DNA of 49,373 nt from a virus (Duplodnaviria > Caudoviricetes). The stretch lies in IMG/VR virus record IMGVR_UViG_3300033067_000841, positions 1 through 49,373 of that record; one strand, given 5' to 3'. The position numbers and the translations under genes are program-made. Below are positions 3,496-16,183 of the stretch, piece by piece. How positions within the stretch are numbered: position 1 is the stretch's first letter; each line of letters begins with the position of its first letter. The notes under the pieces were generated by a model, which saw nothing but the letters and a program-made list of their open reading frames with translations, made no database searches and had not been told where the DNA came from.

Positions 3496-3842
3496 TCCAA
3501 AAGCAATCCTGAACCGTCTTCCATAAGAAGCTTTGAAGTACCGTCTTCCAGTAGTATCCTTGAGCCCGTAGCTAGTGATCCTGAAACAACTGATACAAAA
3601 ACTGGTCCGTTGTTTGTGGAGCTTTCCACCACGTACATGGATCCATCAGGAGCGTGGTGGCCCATGGTGGTGCTGGTGCCTACGGTGACGTAGAGAGCCC
3701 CGCAGGGATGGTAGGCGCCTACGAAGCTTGTGCCTGGGGCTACAATGACGTTTAGAGACCCGTCAGCGGCATAGAGCCCTGTCCAGGTACTCCCACTCAC
3801 GACGGTTACCCGAATGGCCCCTGAGGCCGCGTAGAGGCCCAT
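3492..3842 (-). CDS. Hypothetical virion protein with four GxYAxDGS-like repeats and a C-terminal LLxEDG motif
   Basis: ATG at 3842 overlaps the TerS stop (TAATG). Repeats GLYAASGA, GLYAADGS, GAYHPCGA, GHHAPDGS; ends ILLEDGTSKLLMEDGSGLLLE. Confidence 0.6.
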   Translation of the reverse strand: MGLYAASGAIRVTVVSGSTWTGLYAADGSLNVIVAPGTSFVGAYHPCGALYVTVGTSTTMGHHAPDGSMYVVESSTNNGPVFVSVVSGSLATGSRILLEDGTSKLLMEDGSGLLLE

Positions 3843-4372
3843 TAGTTGGTCCTCTGGAGGGTAATGCGTTCGAAGTCGTCGTCGAGCCTGGTGAGGTGCT
3901 GGGCCTGCTCCTTGGCGGCCTGGGCGATCTCCTGCTTGGAGGGTCTGCCCCGCTTGTTCTGGCCGTCCTTGGGTTCCCACCCCTTCTCAAGGAGGTACTT
4001 GTTGGCGGCGAAGCTTTCTTTTCCACTGGTCTTGCTCTCGGCCATGATTCGAGCGAGAGCTTTGCTTTTCATACGGAGCTCCAGCTCCTTACGCCACCTC
4101 TGGACGTAGGGCTGGAAGAAAGGAGACTCACAAAGCCTCTCCCAGTGGTCCCAACCATCTACGTACTTCTGGGCAAACTCCCATTCCGTAGGATCGTTGG
4201 TCTCCATATACAAACGATAGAGACTAGGGTAGCCTACGTGATCGTGGTCCTTTAGTGTGTAGACAACGTACTGCTTATCAGGCCCTGCCGTTTCAAAGAA
4301 CAGGGACCGCATAAGGCGAACGTTGTTCGCGGCGACACGAAATGGAGATGGGTTTTCTATATAGTTCGACAA
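3842..4372 (-). CDS. Putative terminase small subunit
   Basis: First gene of the structural arm; TTG start after AAGGA. 'YPSLYRLYME.NDPTEWEFA...GWDHWERL...WRKELELR...KRGRPSK' resembles the TerS of this podovirus group. Confidence 0.65.
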   Translation of the reverse strand: MSNYIENPSPFRVAANNVRLMRSLFFETAGPDKQYVVYTLKDHDHVGYPSLYRLYMETNDPTEWEFAQKYVDGWDHWERLCESPFFQPYVQRWRKELELRMKSKALARIMAESKTSGKESFAANKYLLEKGWEPKDGQNKRGRPSKQEIAQAAKEQAQHLTRLDDDFERITLQRTN

Positions 4373-4379
4373 AGACAGA

Positions 4380-4900
4380 AATGTCCTTAAGTATATCTTT
4401 AGTATTGCTAATGCAAAAATAGCTTACTAACGTAAGCTAATCATTAGAAAAGAAAGAATAGAACGACAATAACCACTAAAATAATAATACTAAAAATACT
4501 ACTACAACAAATATATATATATATTATATATAAATATATCTTAAGGAGCCTTATGCTCTACTAAAGATATACTCTCTAGTATCTTTAGATATTATATAGG
4601 AGTATGTATTGCTTTGTCAATACTTAGGGAGCCACTTTAGGGTAAACCTGGAATTTCTACGAGATAAATTTGAGGTGGAATTCAATCAAAAAGACTCACC
4701 CTACCCCCCTACATACCCCCTCTAAAGATATCGCATGTGTAGAATCATATGCTTATGCTCTAGATGAGCATAAGGGTAGAGGGTGGGTGGGTATTGCACT
4801 AGCTCTCAGCCATCCAATACGCTACACCCTAAGCATTTGCTTATGAAACTGCCAATGTAAGCTGGTATTGATATGGTATTATAATACCCTACGTTATAGT
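4380..4900. other. AT-rich, palindrome-rich divergent intergenic region; likely genome termini / packaging or origin region
   Basis: No ORFs; (TA)n run ~4511-4540; CTAAAGATA motif in both orientations (~4394, 4561, 4580, 4722); palindromes at 4421-4438, 4752-4774 and 4875-4888; lies between TerS and the early genes. Confidence 0.5.
4591..4620 (-). promoter_or_regulatory. Sigma70-type promoter for the structural arm
   Basis: Minus strand reads TTGACA-N18-TATAAT (perfect hexamers) and points at TerS. Confidence 0.8.
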
Positions 4901-4926
4901 ATTACGTAAGCAATAGCATGTGGTGC

Positions 4927-5534
4927 GTCCTTCGGACCGGGCTACTCATGAACAGAGCCACCTGAACCGGTGTCTCTGCCCTTCGGGTGAGTATCCCTCG
5001 CACAAGAGGTTAGGTGCCTTTGGCGAGCTTGTCGTTCGGTGCTCCCTTTGGTCGCAAAAGTCCATAGGCATATCGAATGCCTATGTCCTTTGGTCGTTCT
5101 CCGGTCGCACCTACGAACTCTCCCGAACGACCTCACCTAGCTCTACTACTACACAGTAGTTGCTGGCCATTCCCTTCAGGATGGCACTCAGAGCTACAGC
5201 CCTGTCAATGGCTTCGTCTCCGGTGCATATGGTCACGCCTTCGGCGTGTGGTCCTAAGCGAAAAGAAACCGCAGACGCTAGAGGCGTCTGCTACGACCGA
5301 GGTATCGGTCGTTTTCTTTTCAACTGTGGATGCAGTTCCAGAACCTGTGCGCGACTCGTAGTCCTGCATCAGTGCACCTTCAGACTCAACTGTTGTCGTC
5401 GTGCTCGGTTCTTCCACTGCCCCACAGCAGTTCCCTCCGACTCGTGAACGAAAGCCAAGTGGCTTTCGCCATTGACAGAACTGGCTCTGACCGGCCAGGC
5501 GTCCGGGAATCAGCAGCAACTGCTGTGTAGTAGT
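4927..5534 (+). ncRNA. Large structured non-coding element (candidate ncRNA or structured leader)
   Basis: Long-range stems 5145-5165/5514-5534, 5188-5195/5483-5490 and 5202-5212/5468-5478 enclose many nested hairpins; mismatches are G-U-type on the + strand. Confidence 0.65.
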
Positions 5535-5559
5535 TCGTCCCCAGCAAAAGGAGTCCAGC

Positions 5560-5682
5560 ATGTTCATGCACATCGCCCTTTACTACCTACACCAGTCGTA
5601 CGAGTGCAAGCTCTACGATCTACCAGGTGAGTATCAGTACTACTGCATTGCCATGCGTTACTACAACCGGATGGAGGGCTAA
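5560..5682 (+). CDS. Early micro-ORF 1 (40 aa, Tyr-rich)
   Basis: AAGGAG RBS then MFMHIALYYLHQSYECKLYDLPGEYQYYCIAMRYYNRMEG*. Confidence 0.65.
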   Translation: MFMHIALYYLHQSYECKLYDLPGEYQYYCIAMRYYNRMEG

Positions 5683-5684
5683 CC

Positions 5685-5822
5685 ATGCTGCGCACATACA
5701 CCTTCACGACATCCATCGGATACATCGTCATCCTCGCCTATTCACTGGCGTATGCATATCGCCAAGTGGAACAGCACTATCCAGCTGGTATCACAATCTC
5801 GAATGTGGAGATCTCGCTGTGA
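5685..5822 (+). CDS. Early micro-ORF 2 (45 aa)
   Basis: GGAGG RBS then MLRTYTFTTSIGYIVILAYSLAYAYRQVEQHYPAGITISNVEISL*. Confidence 0.6.
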   Translation: MLRTYTFTTSIGYIVILAYSLAYAYRQVEQHYPAGITISNVEISL

Positions 5823-5896
5823 TGTTCCTCGCTCTTCCTATCATCACACTGGTGATGCCCATCATCCTCTGCATCTACACACTCAGGAGAGCCTGA
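5822..5896 (+). CDS. Early micro-ORF 3 (24 aa, single hydrophobic helix)
   Basis: TGATG coupling and GGAG RBS; MFLALPIITLVMPIILCIYTLRRA*. Confidence 0.55.
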   Translation: MFLALPIITLVMPIILCIYTLRRA

Positions 5897-5897
5897 C

Positions 5898-6008
5898 ATG
5901 TACCAGCACATCGTTATGTACCATCTGTGGCATGCCAACCAGCGCAAGCCCACATATCACTTCCACGAGTACTTCGCGTACTACTACACCAAGCTCATGG
6001 AGGCCTGA
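5898..6008 (+). CDS. Early micro-ORF 4 (36 aa, Tyr/His-rich; resembles micro-ORF 1)
   Basis: AGGAG RBS; MYQHIVMYHLWHANQRKPTYHFHEYFAYYYTKLMEA*. Confidence 0.6.
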   Translation: MYQHIVMYHLWHANQRKPTYHFHEYFAYYYTKLMEA

Positions 6009-6009
6009 C

Positions 6010-6117
6010 ATGACCGATGACTTCATACTTCCTATCATCATCGCCGTTGTATTCACCCTCTGTGCTCACGCCATCTACGTGTTCATCGAGGTCTGCACTC
6101 TCGCTCTTGGAGGCTGA
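6010..6117 (+). CDS. Early micro-ORF 5 (35 aa, membrane peptide)
   Basis: GGAGG RBS; MTDDFILPIIIAVVFTLCAHAIYVFIEVCTLALGG*. Confidence 0.6.
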   Translation: MTDDFILPIIIAVVFTLCAHAIYVFIEVCTLALGG

Positions 6118-6118
6118 G

Positions 6119-6322
6119 ATGACTGTGATCCAACAACTACTGATCGATGCTCACAAGCCACTGTATCAGCACGCAACACTCGTGGCACTGGGCAACAGCT
6201 ACCACAAGTCGCTCTTCAAGTCCCGCATGGAACTTCTGAATTCTCCTGACCCAATCAAAGTTGGTGTCGGTCTCGACATCATCGAGCTTATTCTCAACGA
6301 ACTCAAGGAGAGCCAGCCATGA
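6119..6322 (+). CDS. Early hypothetical protein (67 aa)
   Basis: GGAGG RBS; MTVIQQLLIDAHKPLY...LNELKESQP*. Confidence 0.6.
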   Translation: MTVIQQLLIDAHKPLYQHATLVALGNSYHKSLFKSRMELLNSPDPIKVGVGLDIIELILNELKESQP

Positions 6323-6420
6323 TCGATGATGAGCATTACGAGATCGAGATCTTCAACCTCGCGGGTGTCCTGACTATTGTCGGACTTGCCCTCATCCTCC
6401 TCTACAACCTCTTCCGGTAA
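6319..6420 (+). CDS. Early micro-ORF (33 aa, membrane peptide)
   Basis: AAGGAG RBS and ATGA overlap; MIDDEHYEIEIFNLAGVLTIVGLALILLYNLFR*. Confidence 0.6.
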   Translation: MIDDEHYEIEIFNLAGVLTIVGLALILLYNLFR

Positions 6421-6431
6421 AGGAACAGACC

Positions 6432-6665
6432 ATGAACGGCTTCTGTCAGTGCCACTGTCCCAAGTGCGATCCAATCATCAGCGTGCGCATCACCAAGCGC
6501 ATCTCCAACCTGCACAACGCTATCAACTTCATCTGTACCGAATTGATACATGCTGAAGCTGAGCAGTCACATGCTGCAATGCAGTATCGTGCAGATAAAT
6601 ACGCTCGGGAGATTGACAACCTCCAATGTGAGCTTCAACATCACAACAATAAGAACACGTTGTAG
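6432..6665 (+). CDS. Early hypothetical protein with N-terminal CxCxCxxC and coiled coil
   Basis: AAGGA RBS; MNGFCQCHCPKCDP... Confidence 0.6.
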   Translation: MNGFCQCHCPKCDPIISVRITKRISNLHNAINFICTELIHAEAEQSHAAMQYRADKYAREIDNLQCELQHHNNKNTL

Positions 6666-6674
6666 ATGTTGTAT

Positions 6675-6762
6675 AGGTCTCCCATGTGCTCGGTTGTCAA
6701 GCGCAAGCGCTCGCGCCCCTGGCGCGCCCTGCGGGTGACAACCTGCGGCTCCTGGGAGACCT
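6675..6762. other. Cloverleaf inverted-repeat element
   Basis: AGGTCTCCCA/TGGGAGACCT and GGTTGTCA/TGACAACC stems closing three mini-hairpins. Confidence 0.6.
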
Positions 6763-6819
6763 TCCGGGGGCAAAGAAAAACAATACGAAGTTCAACATCC
6801 ACAAACAGGAACAGCAATC

Positions 6820-7410
6820 ATGGCTAAGTCCAAGACGATCCGTCAGCCTGACTCTCCGCTCGTCGAAGCTCTCCTCGTCGCGATCGAACCTTTCCTCGCT
6901 CTCGCAAACGAAGATCCTCTCCGCGTCAGCACAGCATCCACTGATACAGGGCATGAGGCCCCGGCCCTGCGAGACAAGACGTTCGCATTCCTGCTCTCGA
7001 CCTTCGCCAACAACTGCCACACACAGCTGTACGGTACGCCCTCGGCAGCTGATGGTCGGACCTTCGACAATGCCAAGACGTGGCACCAGAAGGCGAAGGA
7101 TCGCGAGAAGGACGTCATCAAGAACATCTGGGACACCGACAAGAGCGACATCGAGAACAAGCTCAACGTGGTCTCCAACTCCGACTGGCTGCGAGCCAAC
7201 CACTACGTCCGCATGAACGAGGCCAAGTGCCAGACTCTGGAGGAGCTCATCACCTCCTGTGCCATCGTCTACAAGGTCCTGACCAAGGAAGACTGGAAGC
7301 CGCGTATTCAGGCGCAGCAGCCCGTCACCAAAATCACGGCCACCGACGAGGAACAGGCACGTCTCGTCCAGCTGCTCGACAAGACCATGGGTAAGCAGGC
7401 TACCGCATAG
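6820..7410 (+). CDS. Hypothetical protein (196 aa)
   Basis: ATG with AGGA RBS and phage-like codon usage; no motif recognised. Confidence 0.75.
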   Translation: MAKSKTIRQPDSPLVEALLVAIEPFLALANEDPLRVSTASTDTGHEAPALRDKTFAFLLSTFANNCHTQLYGTPSAADGRTFDNAKTWHQKAKDREKDVIKNIWDTDKSDIENKLNVVSNSDWLRANHYVRMNEAKCQTLEELITSCAIVYKVLTKEDWKPRIQAQQPVTKITATDEEQARLVQLLDKTMGKQATA

Positions 7411-7420
7411 AGCTACACGG

Positions 7421-7451
7421 AGGACCTGAGCACGTCCTGATAAACTGCTCA
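7421..7451 (+). ncRNA. H-type pseudoknot, copy 1
   Basis: AGGAC-CUGAGCA-C-GUCCU-gau-AAAC-UGCUCA. Confidence 0.65.
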
Positions 7452-7586
7452 CCTTCCGACTAAAGATGCGGTTTACACGAGGAGGCAAAGTGGAGACTAA
7501 GCGACAGAATGAGCGCGAAAGATCCACACCTCAGAAGACCGCGATAAGCGCGTGTCAGTAAGCTAACCACCAGCTTTGCAGTTACG

Positions 7587-7740: not shown

Positions 7741-7854
7741 CAGCCTGAGCAAGCTGAATCGATCCTGGGAGATTCGTAGCCGCCTTAGTATACAGCCGTA
7801 AGGCTGTAAAAAACGCCCTACCATAGTACCAGAGATGGACTGCCAAAACTGCTC
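7741..7854 (+). ncRNA. H-type pseudoknot, copy 2, with ~90-nt structured insertion
   Basis: CAGC-CUGAGCA-A-GCUG-[insert including UACAGCC-GUAA-GGCUGUA GNRA hairpin]-AAAC-UGCUC. Confidence 0.55.
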
Positions 7855-7898
7855 GCTTCGCTCGCATCGCAGACTTCGTCTGCTCCTGCTCTTTGTTT

Positions 7899-7943
7899 GG
7901 GGACCTGGGTATGTCCCCGCTTTGTTAGCGAACAAACTACCCA
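7899..7943 (+). ncRNA. H-type pseudoknot, copy 3
   Basis: GGGGAC-CUGGGUA-U-GUCCCC-...-AAAC-UACCCA, just upstream of the RBS of the 7964 gene. Confidence 0.65.
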
Positions 7944-7963: not shown

Positions 7964-8272
7964 ATGGATTGCACCTTTCAGGTAGGCGATGTCGTTGTAT
8001 GCATCAATGACAAATATAGTCCAACGTTTGATGCAGTTCATAAGCCAAAGCTCAATCAAGTTTTGACTATCCGAGCAATGCGAATAAGTGAAAGCCCAAG
8101 TACAAAAGGCAAAGCTTCTCTAACTTTCAATGAAATTCGTAATCCACTGCATATTCCAACACAACAGGAATATGCATTTGTTTACACACGCTTCCGACCA
8201 GCACGGAAAACTGACATCTCGTGCTTCACAGCACTGCTCAACACTAAGGAGCTAGTCGATGCAACCCGATGA
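7964..8272 (+). CDS. Hypothetical protein, SH3-like N-terminus
   Basis: GGAGGT RBS; ATG at 7964; 'FQVGDVVVCIND...LTIRAM'. Confidence 0.7.
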   Translation: MDCTFQVGDVVVCINDKYSPTFDAVHKPKLNQVLTIRAMRISESPSTKGKASLTFNEIRNPLHIPTQQEYAFVYTRFRPARKTDISCFTALLNTKELVDATR

Positions 8273-8360: not shown

Positions 8361-9161
8361 TTGAGATACGTCGTTCGACCACCATCCATTTACACGACCC
8401 CAAGTCTTATCAAGCGTACTTTAGGTTGTGTCCGTACTGTCACTGCTGGCAACAGCTATCGCCCCATTGATTGGCGACGTGACTTCTTCCTCCACTATCC
8501 AGACCCTAGCGAGGTGCTCAACACCGATGCCCGATATGAGGATATCAGATCTTTTACAGGTTCCACCAAGCTCGAACAACGAAGAGCTCTCACGAGTGCA
8601 GGAATCCCTACGCCAGCTTCGTATTCGTCCTATGACGATCTCTTGGAACACCTGGGTCGAGCAGACGTTTCCATCCTCGAATCCGTTAGTACCCCGCTCG
8701 TTAGGCGACCCCTCAGACACAGCCAGGGCGTCGGATACGCCATCATCCACGACCCCTACGACTGGGACCCCACGAAAGAGTACGTATCGGAGCTTTATCC
8801 GAAAGCACACGAGTACCGGATAATCTTCTGTCTCGGTACTCCAGTCATCACACTCTACAAGAGAGTTCCTGATGACGTGGATCCTAACGGACCATGGAAC
8901 CATGCGTGTGGTTCCTCATTCGTCACCGTCAACAACCCTGAACTCAACAGACTAAGACACACGGACGCTTACGATCGTCTGTCGTCGATGGCTGTCATCA
9001 AGCACGCTCATCTTTGCGCAGCAGACATCATGCTCGCAAAGAAAGGACAATACGTGGTTTCTGAACTGAACTTCTGCCCTGCACTGACCATCCCAAGCAA
9101 TCTTGAAAGGATCAAACTGCATGTTCAAGCTCATTCAGAGCTTCGACGACTCGCTGCCTGA
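8361..9161 (+). CDS. ATP-grasp ligase
   Basis: 'KLEQRRALTSAGIPTP', 'RRPLRHSQGVG', 'EYRI', 'WNHACG', 'AADIM', 'SELNFCPAL' are ATP-grasp motifs (E-x-N metal ligands). Confidence 0.8.
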   Translation: MRYVVRPPSIYTTPSLIKRTLGCVRTVTAGNSYRPIDWRRDFFLHYPDPSEVLNTDARYEDIRSFTGSTKLEQRRALTSAGIPTPASYSSYDDLLEHLGRADVSILESVSTPLVRRPLRHSQGVGYAIIHDPYDWDPTKEYVSELYPKAHEYRIIFCLGTPVITLYKRVPDDVDPNGPWNHACGSSFVTVNNPELNRLRHTDAYDRLSSMAVIKHAHLCAADIMLAKKGQYVVSELNFCPALTIPSNLERIKLHVQAHSELRRLAA

Positions 9162-10995
9162 GATCGAACTGCCAATCGAGCATCTCTTCAACCCTGCCCT
9201 CAATAAGCTTTGGCAGTCGGGATTCTCTCGACAGCTGGCAGGAAACAACAGCTATCCCCGTATCTGCGACATGTTCAAGCTGCTGAAGAGTCTCTATACC
9301 AAGAACAATATCCTCTATCAGCCCTACCTGATGATCGATTGCCTGGCCGCTGTCGATACTTCCAACCGCAACACCTTCAACGAGTTTGTCAGCTTCTTCG
9401 TCAATGCTATTCCCGAAGAGGACCTGTGGACCCTGGCGTTCATGCGCTTCAACGGATACATCCGAGAGAATGTCGCCTGGCAATCGTATGGTCCTCACGA
9501 CATTCGAGAAGTCTCGACCACGCATACGGGCTGGCGTCTAAGCAGCATCAGCCCAAACCTCGTTACGCAGGTGTGGCCGGCTACCACCTTCACTGGTTCT
9601 GGTCTCGAAGCTACGTATAAAGAACACATCCTCAAGCACGTCAAGAAGATCAAGGACAAGTTCGAAGCGTCGGGCCTGATGACCTGCGAGCGTCAGTTCT
9701 ACCCCGCCCAGGGTAGCTTCTGTCTTGCGCATCTGATGCCTCCGCTGCTGAACTACGTCACCAACGAGAAGATGTTCACTCGCAGTGCTTCTCGCACCAC
9801 CGAATCTCCTTCTACCATCTTTGGTCGCCTGGAGCTGGCCAGCAGCGATGATGTCCGCTCCTTCGTCAAGGCCAGTGTCGAACGCCACCACCACTTCACT
9901 GACCTGGTGGTCGGCATCATGAGCTTCAAGTATGACCCGCCCATCACCAAGGCGGATCGTACGGCACTGCACACCGTGTTCTCCTACTCCACTTCACCGT
10001 GTGACATGCTGAAATGGCCGATCACCCTCAAGGGAGAGGTCAAGCCTGTCCTCTATGGCGTGGAGCTGGAGGTCTCCACCAACTACACCATGAAGCGGCT
10101 CATCGAGGCATGCAACGAGCTGTTCCTGATCGGCAAGCAGGACGGCAGCATCACCGGATCCATGGGCAACAGGGTCGAGCTCGTCACTGTTCCATGTTCC
10201 TTGCGTGCCCAGAAGCGAGAGTGGGCACACTTCTTCTCCAAGCTGGACTACGAGCAGTTCGACACCAGCAAGGACACCAATAACGGCATGCATGTCCACA
10301 TCGACAGGACTGCCTTCGTCGATGAGAAGCACATCCGCAACCTGGCATGGCTGGTCAACAACCCTGCCAACTATGACTTCTGGCTGGCTGTGTCGGAGCG
10401 CAACGATCACTCGATGCGCAACTATGCAACCACTGCCAACTTCGGCACTTCATCCAAGGTCCGCAGCTTCCGCAACACCACGCAGGTTGTCTCGCAGATC
10501 CGTGGTGCCATCAACGTACGCACCAACAAGCCCACCATCGAGGTGCGTCTGTTCCGCGGCATCGTCTCGTACGCCAGTGTCCTCAAGAACCTGGAGTGCG
10601 TTGATGCCATGTACAACTACACCATGAGCCGCAACATCACCGAGCTTACGCTCAAGGCATTCCTTGCCTGGCTCGACAGCACACCGTCCAACAAGTACCC
10701 AGTGTTCAAGAAGTTCGTTGCTGCCATTCCCAACATGAAGAAGATCATCGCTCGCAGCGAGGTACGAGAGATCATCTTCAACGCCAAGACACCCGAGAAG
10801 ATCATTCAGATCCTCGACAAGTCCAAGTTCAAGATCACGCAGGAGCACATCCTCGCCCTCAACAAGACCATGAAGAAGCGGTCATTCCGTCTCAACAAAG
10901 CAACAGGAAAGGTAGAAGCAATCTTCACGAACGAATCACCCGTCGCCCATCTCAACCGCGAGCTTGAGAAGCGCTTCATCAACATGGCCGGTTGA
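9121..10995 (+). CDS. Putative amidoligase (glutamine-synthetase-like COOH-NH2 ligase) with ~300-aa unknown N-terminal region
   Basis: 'YGVELEV', 'DGSI', 'VELVT', 'GMHVH', 'TIEVRLFRG'. Confidence 0.8.
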   Translation: MFKLIQSFDDSLPEIELPIEHLFNPALNKLWQSGFSRQLAGNNSYPRICDMFKLLKSLYTKNNILYQPYLMIDCLAAVDTSNRNTFNEFVSFFVNAIPEEDLWTLAFMRFNGYIRENVAWQSYGPHDIREVSTTHTGWRLSSISPNLVTQVWPATTFTGSGLEATYKEHILKHVKKIKDKFEASGLMTCERQFYPAQGSFCLAHLMPPLLNYVTNEKMFTRSASRTTESPSTIFGRLELASSDDVRSFVKASVERHHHFTDLVVGIMSFKYDPPITKADRTALHTVFSYSTSPCDMLKWPITLKGEVKPVLYGVELEVSTNYTMKRLIEACNELFLIGKQDGSITGSMGNRVELVTVPCSLRAQKREWAHFFSKLDYEQFDTSKDTNNGMHVHIDRTAFVDEKHIRNLAWLVNNPANYDFWLAVSERNDHSMRNYATTANFGTSSKVRSFRNTTQVVSQIRGAINVRTNKPTIEVRLFRGIVSYASVLKNLECVDAMYNYTMSRNITELTLKAFLAWLDSTPSNKYPVFKKFVAAIPNMKKIIARSEVREIIFNAKTPEKIIQILDKSKFKITQEHILALNKTMKKRSFRLNKATGKVEAIFTNESPVAHLNRELEKRFINMAG

Positions 10996-11003
10996 GGTAT
11001 AAT

Positions 11004-12077
11004 ATGTGTGTCATCATCCAGAGGGATCCGGGCATTATCCTCCCGGAGGACAAGATCTGGTCAGCGTGCAAGGTCAACTCTGACGGATACGGTATCAGCG
11101 TCATCGATCGTGGCAAGATCGAGACCATCAGGGAGTTCGACCCCAAGGGCAACGACTCCAAACTGGTGATGAAGCGACTTGAGGATGCCAAGGATCACCC
11201 GGTGTTCCTGCATCTGCGCTTCAAGACGGGTGGTGTGAAGGGCGTGGACAACTGCCATCCCTTCACCGTGCTGAACAGGGAGCAGGACAAGCTCGACCTC
11301 CAGTTCATGCACAACGGTACGCTGTTCAAGTTCAATACCGACAAGCACTTCTCCGATACCTACGTCTTCAACGAGAAGATCCTCAAGCCTCTCATCCGCA
11401 AGATGAAGCCATTCTACGATATGCAGGAGGACAAGAACATCCTGGGCGATGCCACCATCTACGCCATCCTCCAGGAATACGCAGGTGCTGGCAGCATCTT
11501 CACGCTGTACGATGCCAACGGCAACAGCATGATCATCAACCGGGACAAGGGATTCGAACACGAGGATCCCGAGACCAAGAAGAAGTGGTGGTCGTCCAAC
11601 AACTACAGCTTCAACCAGTACCATCGTGACGACAGCAAGCGCTACGAGAGCTACTGGCAGGGGCGACACAATGCTTCCGCGTATGGCTACGGATCCTACG
11701 ACGGAAGCGCAGATGAGTGGGAAGGAGACAACGTCAACGACCTCCCTTTCGAACCGACAACGGAAACGTCTCGAAAGGCTCTACCACCGCCGGATACGCA
11801 GGAGTCGGAGGAACAAAAGGACCTGAAGATCCTGGTCGAGACCTCCAACGCAGCAGCCAAGCACATCGCTCCCACCATCATCCCACCCCAGCAGCGGGAC
11901 ACCTTCGTTTCACTCGCCGGGATCTCCAGCCTCTCACAACTTCAATGTTTGGAGGCGGAGGACATCAACGACATCGTCAACAACTACCCGGAGGCAGCCA
12001 GCATCCTGATCATGGACCTGCTGTACGAACTGTACCTGAAGGACACGGCAATCAAGGGAGTCAAGCGTGGTGGCTGA
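11004..12077 (+). CDS. Class II (Ntn) glutamine amidotransferase
   Basis: Start Met-Cys at 11004 after GAGGT; 'NSDGYG', 'HLRFKT', 'NCHPF', 'FMHNG', 'SDT'. Confidence 0.85.
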   Translation: MCVIIQRDPGIILPEDKIWSACKVNSDGYGISVIDRGKIETIREFDPKGNDSKLVMKRLEDAKDHPVFLHLRFKTGGVKGVDNCHPFTVLNREQDKLDLQFMHNGTLFKFNTDKHFSDTYVFNEKILKPLIRKMKPFYDMQEDKNILGDATIYAILQEYAGAGSIFTLYDANGNSMIINRDKGFEHEDPETKKKWWSSNNYSFNQYHRDDSKRYESYWQGRHNASAYGYGSYDGSADEWEGDNVNDLPFEPTTETSRKALPPPDTQESEEQKDLKILVETSNAAAKHIAPTIIPPQQRDTFVSLAGISSLSQLQCLEAEDINDIVNNYPEAASILIMDLLYELYLKDTAIKGVKRGG

Positions 12078-12711
12078 AAGGACTGACTTCATCGACCTAC
12101 TGGAACTGGATCAAAACGGAAGGAAAAACTACGTTCGATCCCTCTCGATTGACGTGGGTCATAATGTTGATGAGCACTACTATTCTCCTGATGGCGCTGC
12201 ACTGAACCGCTACCTCTACCACGACATCTTCGTCTTCGGTCGAATGAAGCAGGGCTTCGGGCTGCACGAGAAGCTGCGTGTCCCCGAGCAGGAGCACAAG
12301 ACCCTGTGCCTAGGCTTCGGTGTCACGGCCTCCACGGCCCTTCGGCTGTGGCGTCAGGATTCACCCCGTGGTGCTGCTGTGCTGCTGCCTGAGCCCGACA
12401 AGAAGCTGCAGGGACGCATCTGCGGGGAGGTATGGCGTGTCCCTGTGTCGATCATCTACAACCTCGACTTCTACGAGAGCAACAACACCTACACCAAGCG
12501 GATGAAGATGCCCATCCGCCTGGAGAGGGGTGGCAAGTACATCTACCATCCAGCCTGGGCCTATGTCGGCATGCCCACCTACTGGAAGGATACCAGCAAG
12601 AAGAAGGCTATCCCCCTTGTACCGTGCGAGACCTCGCTGCTGACCGAGGACAAGCACATCAAGCATTATCTCTACAAGTACAATTATGAAAAAGGTGAAT
12701 CACTGCATTGA
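12067..12711 (+). CDS. Gamma-glutamylcyclotransferase (AIG2-like)
   Basis: 'IFVFGRMKQG', 'ICGEVWRV', 'LDFYE', 'AWAY'. Confidence 0.75.
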   Translation: MVAERTDFIDLLELDQNGRKNYVRSLSIDVGHNVDEHYYSPDGAALNRYLYHDIFVFGRMKQGFGLHEKLRVPEQEHKTLCLGFGVTASTALRLWRQDSPRGAAVLLPEPDKKLQGRICGEVWRVPVSIIYNLDFYESNNTYTKRMKMPIRLERGGKYIYHPAWAYVGMPTYWKDTSKKKAIPLVPCETSLLTEDKHIKHYLYKYNYEKGESLH

Positions 12712-15355: not shown

Positions 15356-16183
15356 TTGATTGTCCAAGCGTTGTGGGAATCCTACTATGAGTCAGTCAAG
15401 CACAAGCCTAGCGGAAAGGTCCGGCAGTACTACTGGAATAAGCTTCAACCATTCTTCGGCCAACATAAAGTGTCGGAAATTAACGAACAACTCTGTCGAA
15501 GTTACTATGAAGATCGCATACGATCCGTCTCTCCCTCAACCATTTGGGGAGAACTATCTCTTCTTCGGACTTGCCTCAACTTCGGCAGGCGTAAGCGCCT
15601 CATCGAACCCTACTCTTTTGATGTATGGCTACCAACGCCTAACCGACCTCGTGATCGACGACTAACCAAGGAGCAAGTAAAGAAGGTTCTGGATAAGTGT
15701 ATCGCTCCTCACACGAAGCTGTTCGTACTGCTTCTGATCTCGACCGCCTGTCGAGCATCGGCTGCCCTCGACCTGACATGGGACCGTGTTGATTTCAACA
15801 GTGGCCTGATCGACCTACGGAAGCCCGTAGACGGCCAGCCTGAGGGCAAAGGTAGGGCGGTAGTACCCATGACACAGAGCCTGCGTACGGCCCTCCTAGA
15901 GGCCAAGGAAAAGGCCACCACTCCCTATGTCATCGAGTATGCTGGACAGAGGATCAAGGACGGGTACAACGGATTCAAGAGGGCATGCGTGGAGGCAGGT
16001 GTACCGTGGGCTCACCCCCACATCCTGCGACACAGTGCTGCAACTTGGATGGCAGAGGATGGTATCCCCATGCCGGAAATCGCTAGGTTCCTGGGACATA
16101 GTGACTCCATCATAACAGAACGGATCTATGCTAAGTATAGGCCCAACTATCTACGCAACGCTGCTTCATCGTTGGAGATTTAA
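15356..16183 (+). CDS. int: Tyrosine recombinase / integrase
   Basis: Catalytic R (TACRASA), K (GKGR), HILRH, LGH and Y (IYAKY). Confidence 0.9.
   Translation: MIVQALWESYYESVKHKPSGKVRQYYWNKLQPFFGQHKVSEINEQLCRSYYEDRIRSVSPSTIWGELSLLRTCLNFGRRKRLIEPYSFDVWLPTPNRPRDRRLTKEQVKKVLDKCIAPHTKLFVLLLISTACRASAALDLTWDRVDFNSGLIDLRKPVDGQPEGKGRAVVPMTQSLRTALLEAKEKATTPYVIEYAGQRIKDGYNGFKRACVEAGVPWAHPHILRHSAATWMAEDGIPMPEIARFLGHSDSIITERIYAKYRPNYLRNAASSLEI

What the first reader, a model, noticed from the sequence alone, without database searches (positions are those of the whole stretch)
4927..5534. ~600-nt multi-branched structured element at the head of the early region: candidate undescribed large phage ncRNA
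Seen: a 21-bp stem (5145-5165/5514-5534) continues into 5188-5195/5483-5490 and a perfect 11-bp stem (5202-5212/5468-5478). It encloses GGTGCA/TGCACC, CACGCC-TTC-GGCGTG, a three-way junction (GAAAAGAAA/TTTCTTTTC with GCAGACGC/GCGTCTGC and ACGACCGA/TCGGTCGT), GATGCAG/CTGCATC, AACTGTTGT/ACAGCAGTT and CGAAAGCC/GGCTTTCG. A second 5' domain (4927-5143) has GTCGTTCGG/CCGAACGAC (5031-5039/5123-5131), CATAGGCAT/ATGCCTATG and further hairpins. Three separate stem mismatches are T-G on the + strand (A-C on the - strand), which points to folding of the + strand. No credible ORF lies here, and the stem closes ~25 nt before the first start codon. I do not recognise it as a tRNA, tmRNA, intron or other known family. 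Inference: a very early transcript that could act as a decoy or scaffold against host defences, or as a processed leader. Several C-TTC-G triloops (cGAAg on the - strand) leave a folded-ssDNA role open.
Basis: partly seen in the sequence, partly recalled or inferred. Interest (0 to 1): 0.85.

Follow-up and report, generated by a model that had tools for sequence, protein, structure and literature searches.

The report
Plasmid-style ssDNA promoter in a phage
The 600-base folded stretch ahead of this phage's early genes is real and shares a small structured module with the first-transferred region of conjugative plasmids; it likely folds as single-stranded DNA into a predicted promoter for the host RNA polymerase rather than acting as an RNA, which would be unexpected in a double-stranded DNA phage.

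Summary
The fold is real (z -7.6 to -10.5 on both strands, no Rfam match, sequence reproduced in two other assemblies). It lies about 250 bases inside the inferred left end of a Zobellviridae-like podovirus. The plus-strand ncRNA reading is not favoured. Its 5' part (4924-5010) is a covarying three-way-junction module found in other phages and in 4,086 of 72,556 plasmids, including just upstream of both Frpo ssDNA promoters of F. In 44 related phage leaders, DNA-stable cGNAg loops (46 vs 9) and wobble mismatches (47 vs 12) favour the template (minus) strand, and TTGAC is the most frequent 5-mer in the basal inverted repeat (11 of 44; next 6). In the window, the fold pairs TTGACA on both arms with a weak -10 at an effective 17 bases. 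A second small element (6670-6762) repeats the -35 pairing. Best reading (0.5): an ssDNA promoter or primer site for host RNA polymerase. Against it: a second set of 20 module-bearing loci showed no strand bias and only 1-2 paired -35 boxes; the main domain has no homologue; no transcript data exist; no source of ssDNA is shown.

The parts
3842..4372 (-). First gene of the late arm, probable terminase small subunit (name inferred from synteny; the family itself is unannotated)
   Evidence: phrog_8035, E 7.6e-41; homologues directly upstream of the large terminase in PA11, ICP2, CVT22, CW02, Pecta
4591..4620 (-). Consensus sigma-70 promoter pointing left to the late arm
   Evidence: 12 of 12 consensus match, 18-nt spacer
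4651..4720 (+). Conserved genome-end motif; left terminus inferred near 4677 (+/-5), start of a direct terminal repeat of unknown length
   Evidence: Motif in 35 of 77 upstream regions; in ICBM1 the annotated 172-bp terminal repeat starts 28 nt after the start of the same motif
4868..4895 (+). Weak candidate conventional promoter pointing into the element (TTGATA, 16 nt, TACGTT; a TATAAT at 4880)
   Evidence: My own scan; below the threshold of the promoter tool
4924..5010 (-). Three-way-junction module (P1 4939-4948/4988-4997, 4-nt junction 4949-4952, P2 4953-4957/4974-4978, triloop hairpin 4979-4987), shared with other phages and with plasmid leading regions; folding strand inferred
5005..5144 (-). 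5' branched domain with a 9-bp hairpin (5063-5085) flanked by a tandem G-A pair on the minus strand
   Evidence: no homologue found
5145..5534 (-). Main domain: long basal stem enclosing a multibranched cap of about 255 nt; predicted fold-reconstituted promoter
   Evidence: no homologue
5203..5208 (-). Consensus -35 hexamer on the predicted non-template arm, paired in the fold with 5472-5477
   Evidence: Pair probabilities near 1
5178..5183 (-). Weak -10-like hexamer CATCCT, 19 nt from the -35 in linear DNA and 17 once the 5195-5196 bulge is looped out; start site predicted near 5505-5509
   Evidence: the start site is inference
5472..5477 (+). Second consensus -35 hexamer; no -10 follows it in linear duplex DNA
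5560..6665 (+). Eight small early ORFs (25-77 aa) with ribosome-binding sites, function unknown
   Evidence: the 77-aa ORF has no PHROG or Pfam match
6670..6762 (-). Second, smaller folded element: consensus -35 (6695-6700, minus) paired with 6735-6740, TATACA 19 nt on, 85 nt before the ATG at 6820
   Evidence: DNA z -4.6 (minus), -4.1 (plus), 0 of 200 shuffles

Best explanation
The element likely works as folded single-stranded DNA on the template (minus) strand, where its basal stem is predicted to rebuild a sigma-70 promoter that is incomplete in duplex DNA and would let host RNA polymerase start near 5505-5509, making early mRNA or a primer for plus-strand synthesis. Shown: the fold, the two paired -35 hexamers, the module shared with plasmid leading regions. 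Inferred: folding strand, DNA rather than RNA, polymerase use. Not shown: how the strand becomes single. My guess is 5'-to-3' resection or strand displacement at the left end, which would spare exactly this 3'-ended strand; fill-in would switch the promoter off, as duplex conversion does for Frpo. The upstream module would be a separate host-factor or roadblock site.
For: (1) The module at 4930-5005 matches 131 plasmids; its plasmid form matches 4,086 of 72,556, 3,176 of them predicted conjugative. In 7 of 8 plasmid regions opened it lies ahead of leading-type genes on the same strand, in F about 470 nt before ssb and ygeA, the genes under Frpo2 and Frpo1. No Rfam family lies at the F copies. 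(2) In 44 non-redundant phage leaders, cGNAg triloop hairpins with stems of 3 or more bp: minus 70, plus 10, shuffled 8.7 and 6.4; 46 vs 9 with the first 130 nt of the 19 module-anchored leaders removed; cUUCGg on plus: 1. Only GNA triloops form such hairpins in DNA, and the RNA octamer is far less stable (PMC13037366, passages). (3) Single mismatches in helices shared by both strands: A-C on plus 47, G-T on plus 12 (p 3e-4 against downstream composition); tandem G-A 7 on minus, 0 on plus. (4) TTGAC ranks first of 1,024 5-mers in an inverted repeat 40-135 nt before the first ATG: 11 of 44, next 6. The -10 score on the minus arm peaks at 19 nt (permutation p 0.011, 15 cases). (5) The window has a second element with a paired -35. 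(6) Three cultured relatives (ICBM1, PA11, Vibrio 1.264) lack the paired -35; the Vibrio phage has two ordinary promoters.
Against: A second set collected afterwards (33 hits, 20 non-redundant) failed my predictions: paired -35 in 1 of 20 by rule and 2 of 20 by fold; cGNAg 12 minus vs 13 plus; A-C 12 vs G-T 8; minus strand folding better in 11 of 20. There the module also stands alone or as inverted pairs (L280, L285, L299), so it does not imply a promoter. A scan of 69 early arms found no convincing further paired elements, and two shuffled words scored higher than TTGAC. Best -10 scores do not exceed random positions (p 0.11), the window's -10 matches 3 of 6, and the 19-nt peak was noticed before it was tested. 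z-scores do not pick a strand (-7.8 minus vs -8.5 plus), and the whole early arm is C-rich on plus. A candidate ordinary promoter lies upstream. F carries a GAA triloop on the plus strand within the module. The main domain has no homologue, so no covariation test. No relaxase or other ssDNA-transfer gene was found among the proteins scanned.
Confidence: 0.5

Rival explanations
1. Plus-strand structured RNA: a leader or ncRNA started near 4900, cut at the 21-bp stem (RNase III-like, recalled from T7) or stopped at the terminator-like site at 5293-5321, acting as decoy or scaffold.
For: Candidate promoter at 4868-4895; RNA z -7.6; one robust G-U at 5157/5522; terminator-like site; the module's P3 can also be read as a 2-bp cUNCGg hairpin in 68 of 71 copies (most fixed by my search patterns).
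Against: cUUCGg in register is not enriched; mismatch bias favours minus in the first set; F's P3 loop is not UNCG; leader sequences diverge completely apart from the module and the -35; no Rfam match.
Confidence: 0.2
2. Folded minus-strand ssDNA used in replication or packaging without RNA polymerase: a primase or helicase loading site, an end protector, or a polymerase roadblock; the -35 match is incidental.
For: Same loop and mismatch evidence; mini-hairpins mark G4 and ssiA priming sites and resist exonuclease (PMC13037366, passages); an F ssDNA promoter stalls complementary-strand synthesis (10.64898/2026.01.09.698686, passages); 250 nt from the inferred terminus.
Against: TTGAC stands out among 1,024 5-mers at a fixed distance from the first ATG; the second element sits ahead of a gene 2 kb inside; the phage has its own primase-helicase.
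Confidence: 0.15
3. A leftward duplex promoter with a 19-nt spacer makes a minus-strand antisense RNA of about 250 nt carrying the 5' domain and the module.
For: TTGACA-19-CATCCT is contiguous on the minus strand; the 19-nt spacing recurs in relatives.
Against: It does not explain the complementary -35 copy 264 nt away or the main-domain fold, which would not be transcribed; spacings of 15 and 22 also occur.
Confidence: 0.07
4. Inert baggage: a mobile palindromic element plus a decayed plasmid-derived hairpin with no role in the phage.
For: The module occurs alone, in both orientations and in pairs in temperate-looking phages; only 5 of 78 terminase-anchored loci, many truncated, carry it.
Against: Pairing is kept through changes on both sides (33 of 33); it sits a few hundred bases past the end motif in unrelated phages; the main stem is nearly perfect and unlike any plasmid.
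Confidence: 0.08

Closest known systems
Frpo1/Frpo2 of plasmid F and ssi1-3 of ColIb-P9 (class 1 ssDNA promoters)
   Same: Large template-strand stem-loop ahead of the first-expressed genes with -35/-10 rebuilt by folding (PMC9849209 passages; PMC12672017 section 17); the same three-way-junction module lies upstream in F.
   Different: No sequence match of the phage main domain to any plasmid; it lies in a tailed dsDNA phage with no known ssDNA stage; -35 is full consensus; activity untested.
[quoted passage not shown]
   Same: Unrelated sequences that rebuild a promoter by folding (PMC12672017 section 17); the module precedes an antirestriction gene in L240.
   Different: Plasmid-borne; the F spacer before its antirestriction gene has no module.
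Phage N4 early hairpin promoters
   Same: Template-strand mini-hairpins at the start of a dsDNA podovirus genome (PMC13037366 figure legend; details recalled).
   Different: Read by an injected phage polymerase of about 3,500 aa (abstract); none found here; this element is about 400-600 nt and carries sigma-70 boxes.
T7 left end (terminal repeat, A promoters, RNase III-cut leader; recalled)
   Same: Non-coding stretch between terminal repeat and first early genes; a long stem just before the first gene.
   Different: No strong duplex early promoter; no phage RNA polymerase found; minus-strand folding signature in relatives.
Large phage ncRNAs such as GOLLD and ROOL (recalled)
   Same: Size and multibranched fold.
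   Different: No Rfam match; no conserved full-length homologues.

Membership tests
Class 1 ssDNA promoters (Frpo/ssi) | Sequence homology of the promoter stem to Frpo/ssi | tested here: not met
   5001-5560 and 6655-6820 have no match in 72,556 plasmids at E 1
Class 1 ssDNA promoters (Frpo/ssi) | Large stem-loop on the template strand directly ahead of the first gene | tested here: met
   (prediction; both strands can fold)
Class 1 ssDNA promoters (Frpo/ssi) | -35 box rebuilt as duplex in the stem | tested here: met
   5203-5208 with 5472-5477
Class 1 ssDNA promoters (Frpo/ssi) | -10 box at promoter spacing on the non-template arm | tested here: inconclusive
   3 of 6 match in the window; peak at 19 nt p 0.011 but p 0.11 against random positions
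Class 1 ssDNA promoters (Frpo/ssi) | Lies in the leading region of an element transferred as ssDNA | tested here: not met
   Complete podovirus; no relaxase or transfer gene among 48 proteins scanned with PHROGs and 28 with Pfam, not all ORFs
Class 1 ssDNA promoters (Frpo/ssi) | Transcribed from ssDNA, silent as dsDNA | not testable with these tools
   Needs in vitro transcription
N4-type hairpin promoters | Virion-carried giant RNA polymerase | tested here: not met
   Largest ORF 1,622 aa, matches an internal virion protein family; no polymerase hit
Described structured RNA families (Rfam 15) | Covariance-model match | tested here: not met
Large phage ncRNA | Discrete transcript | not testable with these tools
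   No RNA run listed
Large phage ncRNA | Full-length covarying homologues | tested here: inconclusive
   Only the 5' module has homologues; no close relatives were retrievable

The most novel reading that the evidence does not exclude
Several lineages of tailed dsDNA phages expose their left end as a single 3'-ended strand inside the host and use plasmid-type, fold-built promoters to fire their first genes or prime replication only in that state; the three-way-junction module is an undescribed ssDNA signal shared by these phages and thousands of conjugative plasmids, including F.
Probability: 0.3. Interest if true: 0.9.

Novelty: new variant of a known kind. Interest (0 to 1): 0.7.

Why it matters
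Host-polymerase ssDNA promoters are known from elements that enter cells as single strands. One in a tailed dsDNA phage would imply an unrecognised single-stranded stage at the first-injected end and a shared early-expression trick between phages and plasmids. The module beside both Frpo copies of F can be deleted and assayed in laboratory E. coli now, without the uncultured phage.

Tried and rejected
Rfam at gathering score and E up to 10: nothing. blastn of 4400-5700 and of the module against cultured phages: no meaningful match. nhmmer of 5011-5560 against 233 fetched loci: none. Single-protein scans of viral contigs with the terS-like and the 196-aa gene: no relatives; the latter has two homologues without retrievable DNA and no family in the Atlas. 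Sequencing runs: no RNA holder listed. Folding z-scores as a strand test: rejected, the sign changes with the shuffle. Raw inverted-repeat mismatch census: noisy (G-T 22, A-C 39), replaced by helices shared by both strands. The smaller p (0.0002) for the 19-nt peak came after dropping 3 of 15 related sequences that lacked the signal, so I do not rely on it. The second set and the early-arm scan gave no support. The motif descriptor was faulty and was redone. DNA polymerase A search in five module-bearing fragments: 0 of 5, uninformative. Earlier scan notes: none by sequence or place. Literature searches for a prior description of phage Frpo-like elements or of the module listed none; subscription papers are missing from that library, figures showing Frpo boxes could not be seen, and bioRxiv supplements are closed.

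Full report
Context. The window is a complete 49,373-base virus record. Its large terminase is 63-68% identical to those of cobaviruses and about 50% to other Zobellviridae, and it has the two-arm layout with primase-helicase, DNA polymerase A, ribonucleotide reductase and an integrase on the plus strand and virion genes on the minus strand. The element lies between the arms. A conserved end motif at 4651-4720 occurs in 35 of 77 upstream regions examined. In ICBM1 the annotated terminal repeat begins right after that motif, so I infer the left end near 4677, about 250 bases before the element. The cobavirus paper reports short terminal repeats with a G+C-rich start (PMC6775973, passages).

The observation. 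All quoted stems are present and the fold is far beyond shuffles on both strands as RNA and as DNA. Rfam has nothing. Contigs from two runs agree with the sequence.

A shared module. Two related phages matched only the 5' part. A 17-base pattern gave 14 viral hits, 13 with the whole three-way junction; a metagenome scan gave 55. Flanking genes show these include unrelated phages. In an alignment of 36 phage and plasmid copies, 88% of cells pair and 10 of 18 pairs change on both sides, above all 500 shuffles and against 34-45% pairing for slid controls. In a later scan whose pattern left four of five P2 bases free, P2 was complementary in 33 of 33 hits, 29 perfectly. Over 71 distinct copies there are 13 P2 sequences, and the P3 loop reads GAA, GCA, GTA or GCCA on the minus strand (the GAA majority is fixed by my patterns). 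The module matches 131 plasmids directly and its plasmid form 4,086 of 72,556. I opened eight plasmid regions: in seven it precedes leading-type genes on the same strand (antirestriction gene beside traM, DUF905-parB-psiB, ssb, a zincin-parB pair, ygeA-like genes), and in one it ends an ssb cluster. In F it lies about 470 bases before ssb and ygeA, the operons driven by Frpo2 and Frpo1 (PMC9849209, passages). A profile built from phage copies alone finds the F copies weakly (E 0.04, 0.11) and other plasmid copies strongly (E about 1e-7). Part of the module closes one published Frpo candidate sequence (PMC11541004, supplement 7 read whole; passages), but I found no description of it.

Which strand, and DNA or RNA. 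From 52 leaders I kept 44 non-redundant ones, 19 anchored on the module and 25 on the terminase gene. cGNAg triloops were 70 on minus and 10 on plus against 8.7 and 6.4 shuffled; 25 and 4 for stems of four or more; cUUCGg on plus occurred once. With the first 130 nt of the 19 module-anchored leaders removed the counts are 46 and 9. GNA is the only triloop class forming DNA mini-hairpins, and the RNA counterpart tested melts far lower (PMC13037366, passages). Mismatches in helices predicted on both strands were A-C 47, G-T 12, C-T 61, A-G 18 on plus, with tandem G-A 7 to 0 for minus; minus folded better in 19 of 19 and 17 of 25. The early arm is C-rich on plus, which helps the minus strand on energy; the A-C excess survives a composition correction.

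A promoter built by folding. The window's stem pairs two consensus -35 hexamers, both pointing to the base of the stem and the first gene. On the minus arm a weak -10 follows at 19 bases, 17 after a two-base bulge; on the plus arm no -10 follows. Across the 44 leaders TTGAC is the commonest 5-mer in such an inverted repeat, 11 against 6 for the overlapping runner-up, and 9 of 19 by fold. The -10 score is higher on the minus arm in 9 and lower in 3 of 15 cases, and peaks at 19 bases, but it is not above random positions (p 0.11). A second element at 6670-6762 has a paired -35 with TATACA 19 bases on. This is the arrangement described for plasmid ssDNA promoters, which are silent as duplex and can prime DNA synthesis (PMC12672017, section 17 and passages; 10.64898/2026.01.09.698686, passages and section 10). 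ICBM1, PA11 and Vibrio phage 1.264 lack the paired -35.

Results against. The second set of 20 non-redundant loci gave a paired -35 in 1 by rule and 2 by fold, cGNAg 12 against 13, A-C 12 against G-T 8. In several of these the module stands alone or in inverted pairs, so module and promoter are separable and the module may be mobile. A scan of 69 early arms added no clear new element. The module was found in 5 of 78 terminase-anchored loci, many truncated. A weak ordinary promoter lies upstream on plus, so the plus strand may be transcribed whatever the DNA does. The main domain has no homologue in phages, plasmids or fetched loci. No RNA data were available.

Mechanism. I commit, at 0.5, to a template-strand ssDNA fold that recruits host RNA polymerase. 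The strand that folds is the one with its 3' end at the left terminus, which is the one left single by 5'-to-3' resection or by strand displacement; resection before terminal-repeat joining is recalled from T7 and was not tested. Transcripts from about 5505 would serve the small early genes or prime plus-strand synthesis, and fill-in would end the activity. None of these steps is shown. The element works like a Frpo-type promoter but is not a member of that family: it fails the homology and context tests.

Verdict. Real feature; probably not a large ncRNA; a new variant of a known kind. Interest 0.7: the module's sharing between phage ends and plasmid leading regions is solid and testable, while the ssDNA-promoter role in a dsDNA phage is plausible but rests on one of two comparative sets.

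Noticed in passing
window 5835, 6029, 7671, 7700, 13082: TTCCTATCA occurs five times, all on plus and four in the early region; 0.31 expected. The same word is visible in early regions of several relatives.
   Followed up: partly
window 7422-7452: H-type pseudoknot-like pairing seen by eye just after the 196-aa gene; no Rfam match.
   Followed up: partly
window 5260-5321: The inner three-way junction scores as a terminator-like site on both strands.
   Followed up: no
window 9103-12711: Amidoligase-like, class II glutamine amidotransferase and gamma-glutamyl cyclotransferase genes in a row in the early-middle arm.
   Followed up: no
window 15356-16183: Tyrosine integrase among the replication genes, so the phage may be temperate.
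   Followed up: no
window 7820-7900: Further small hairpins, including a 6-bp cGNAg hairpin on minus at 7874, ahead of the ORF at 7964.
   Followed up: no
L280 1480-1559 and 2128-2208; L285; L299; L292: The module occurs as inverted pairs around small genes in temperate-looking phages, one copy apparently inside a reading frame.
   Followed up: partly
L259 9096-9180 and 14484-14568: Plasmid F carries the module upstream of both Frpo copies, outside the listed F ssiD sequence.
   Followed up: yes
L164, L167, L181, L182, L187, L206: A clade of leaders from other phages shares further conserved structured blocks and a paired -35 but no -10 at 15-22 nt; closely enough related for a full covariation study.
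   Followed up: partly
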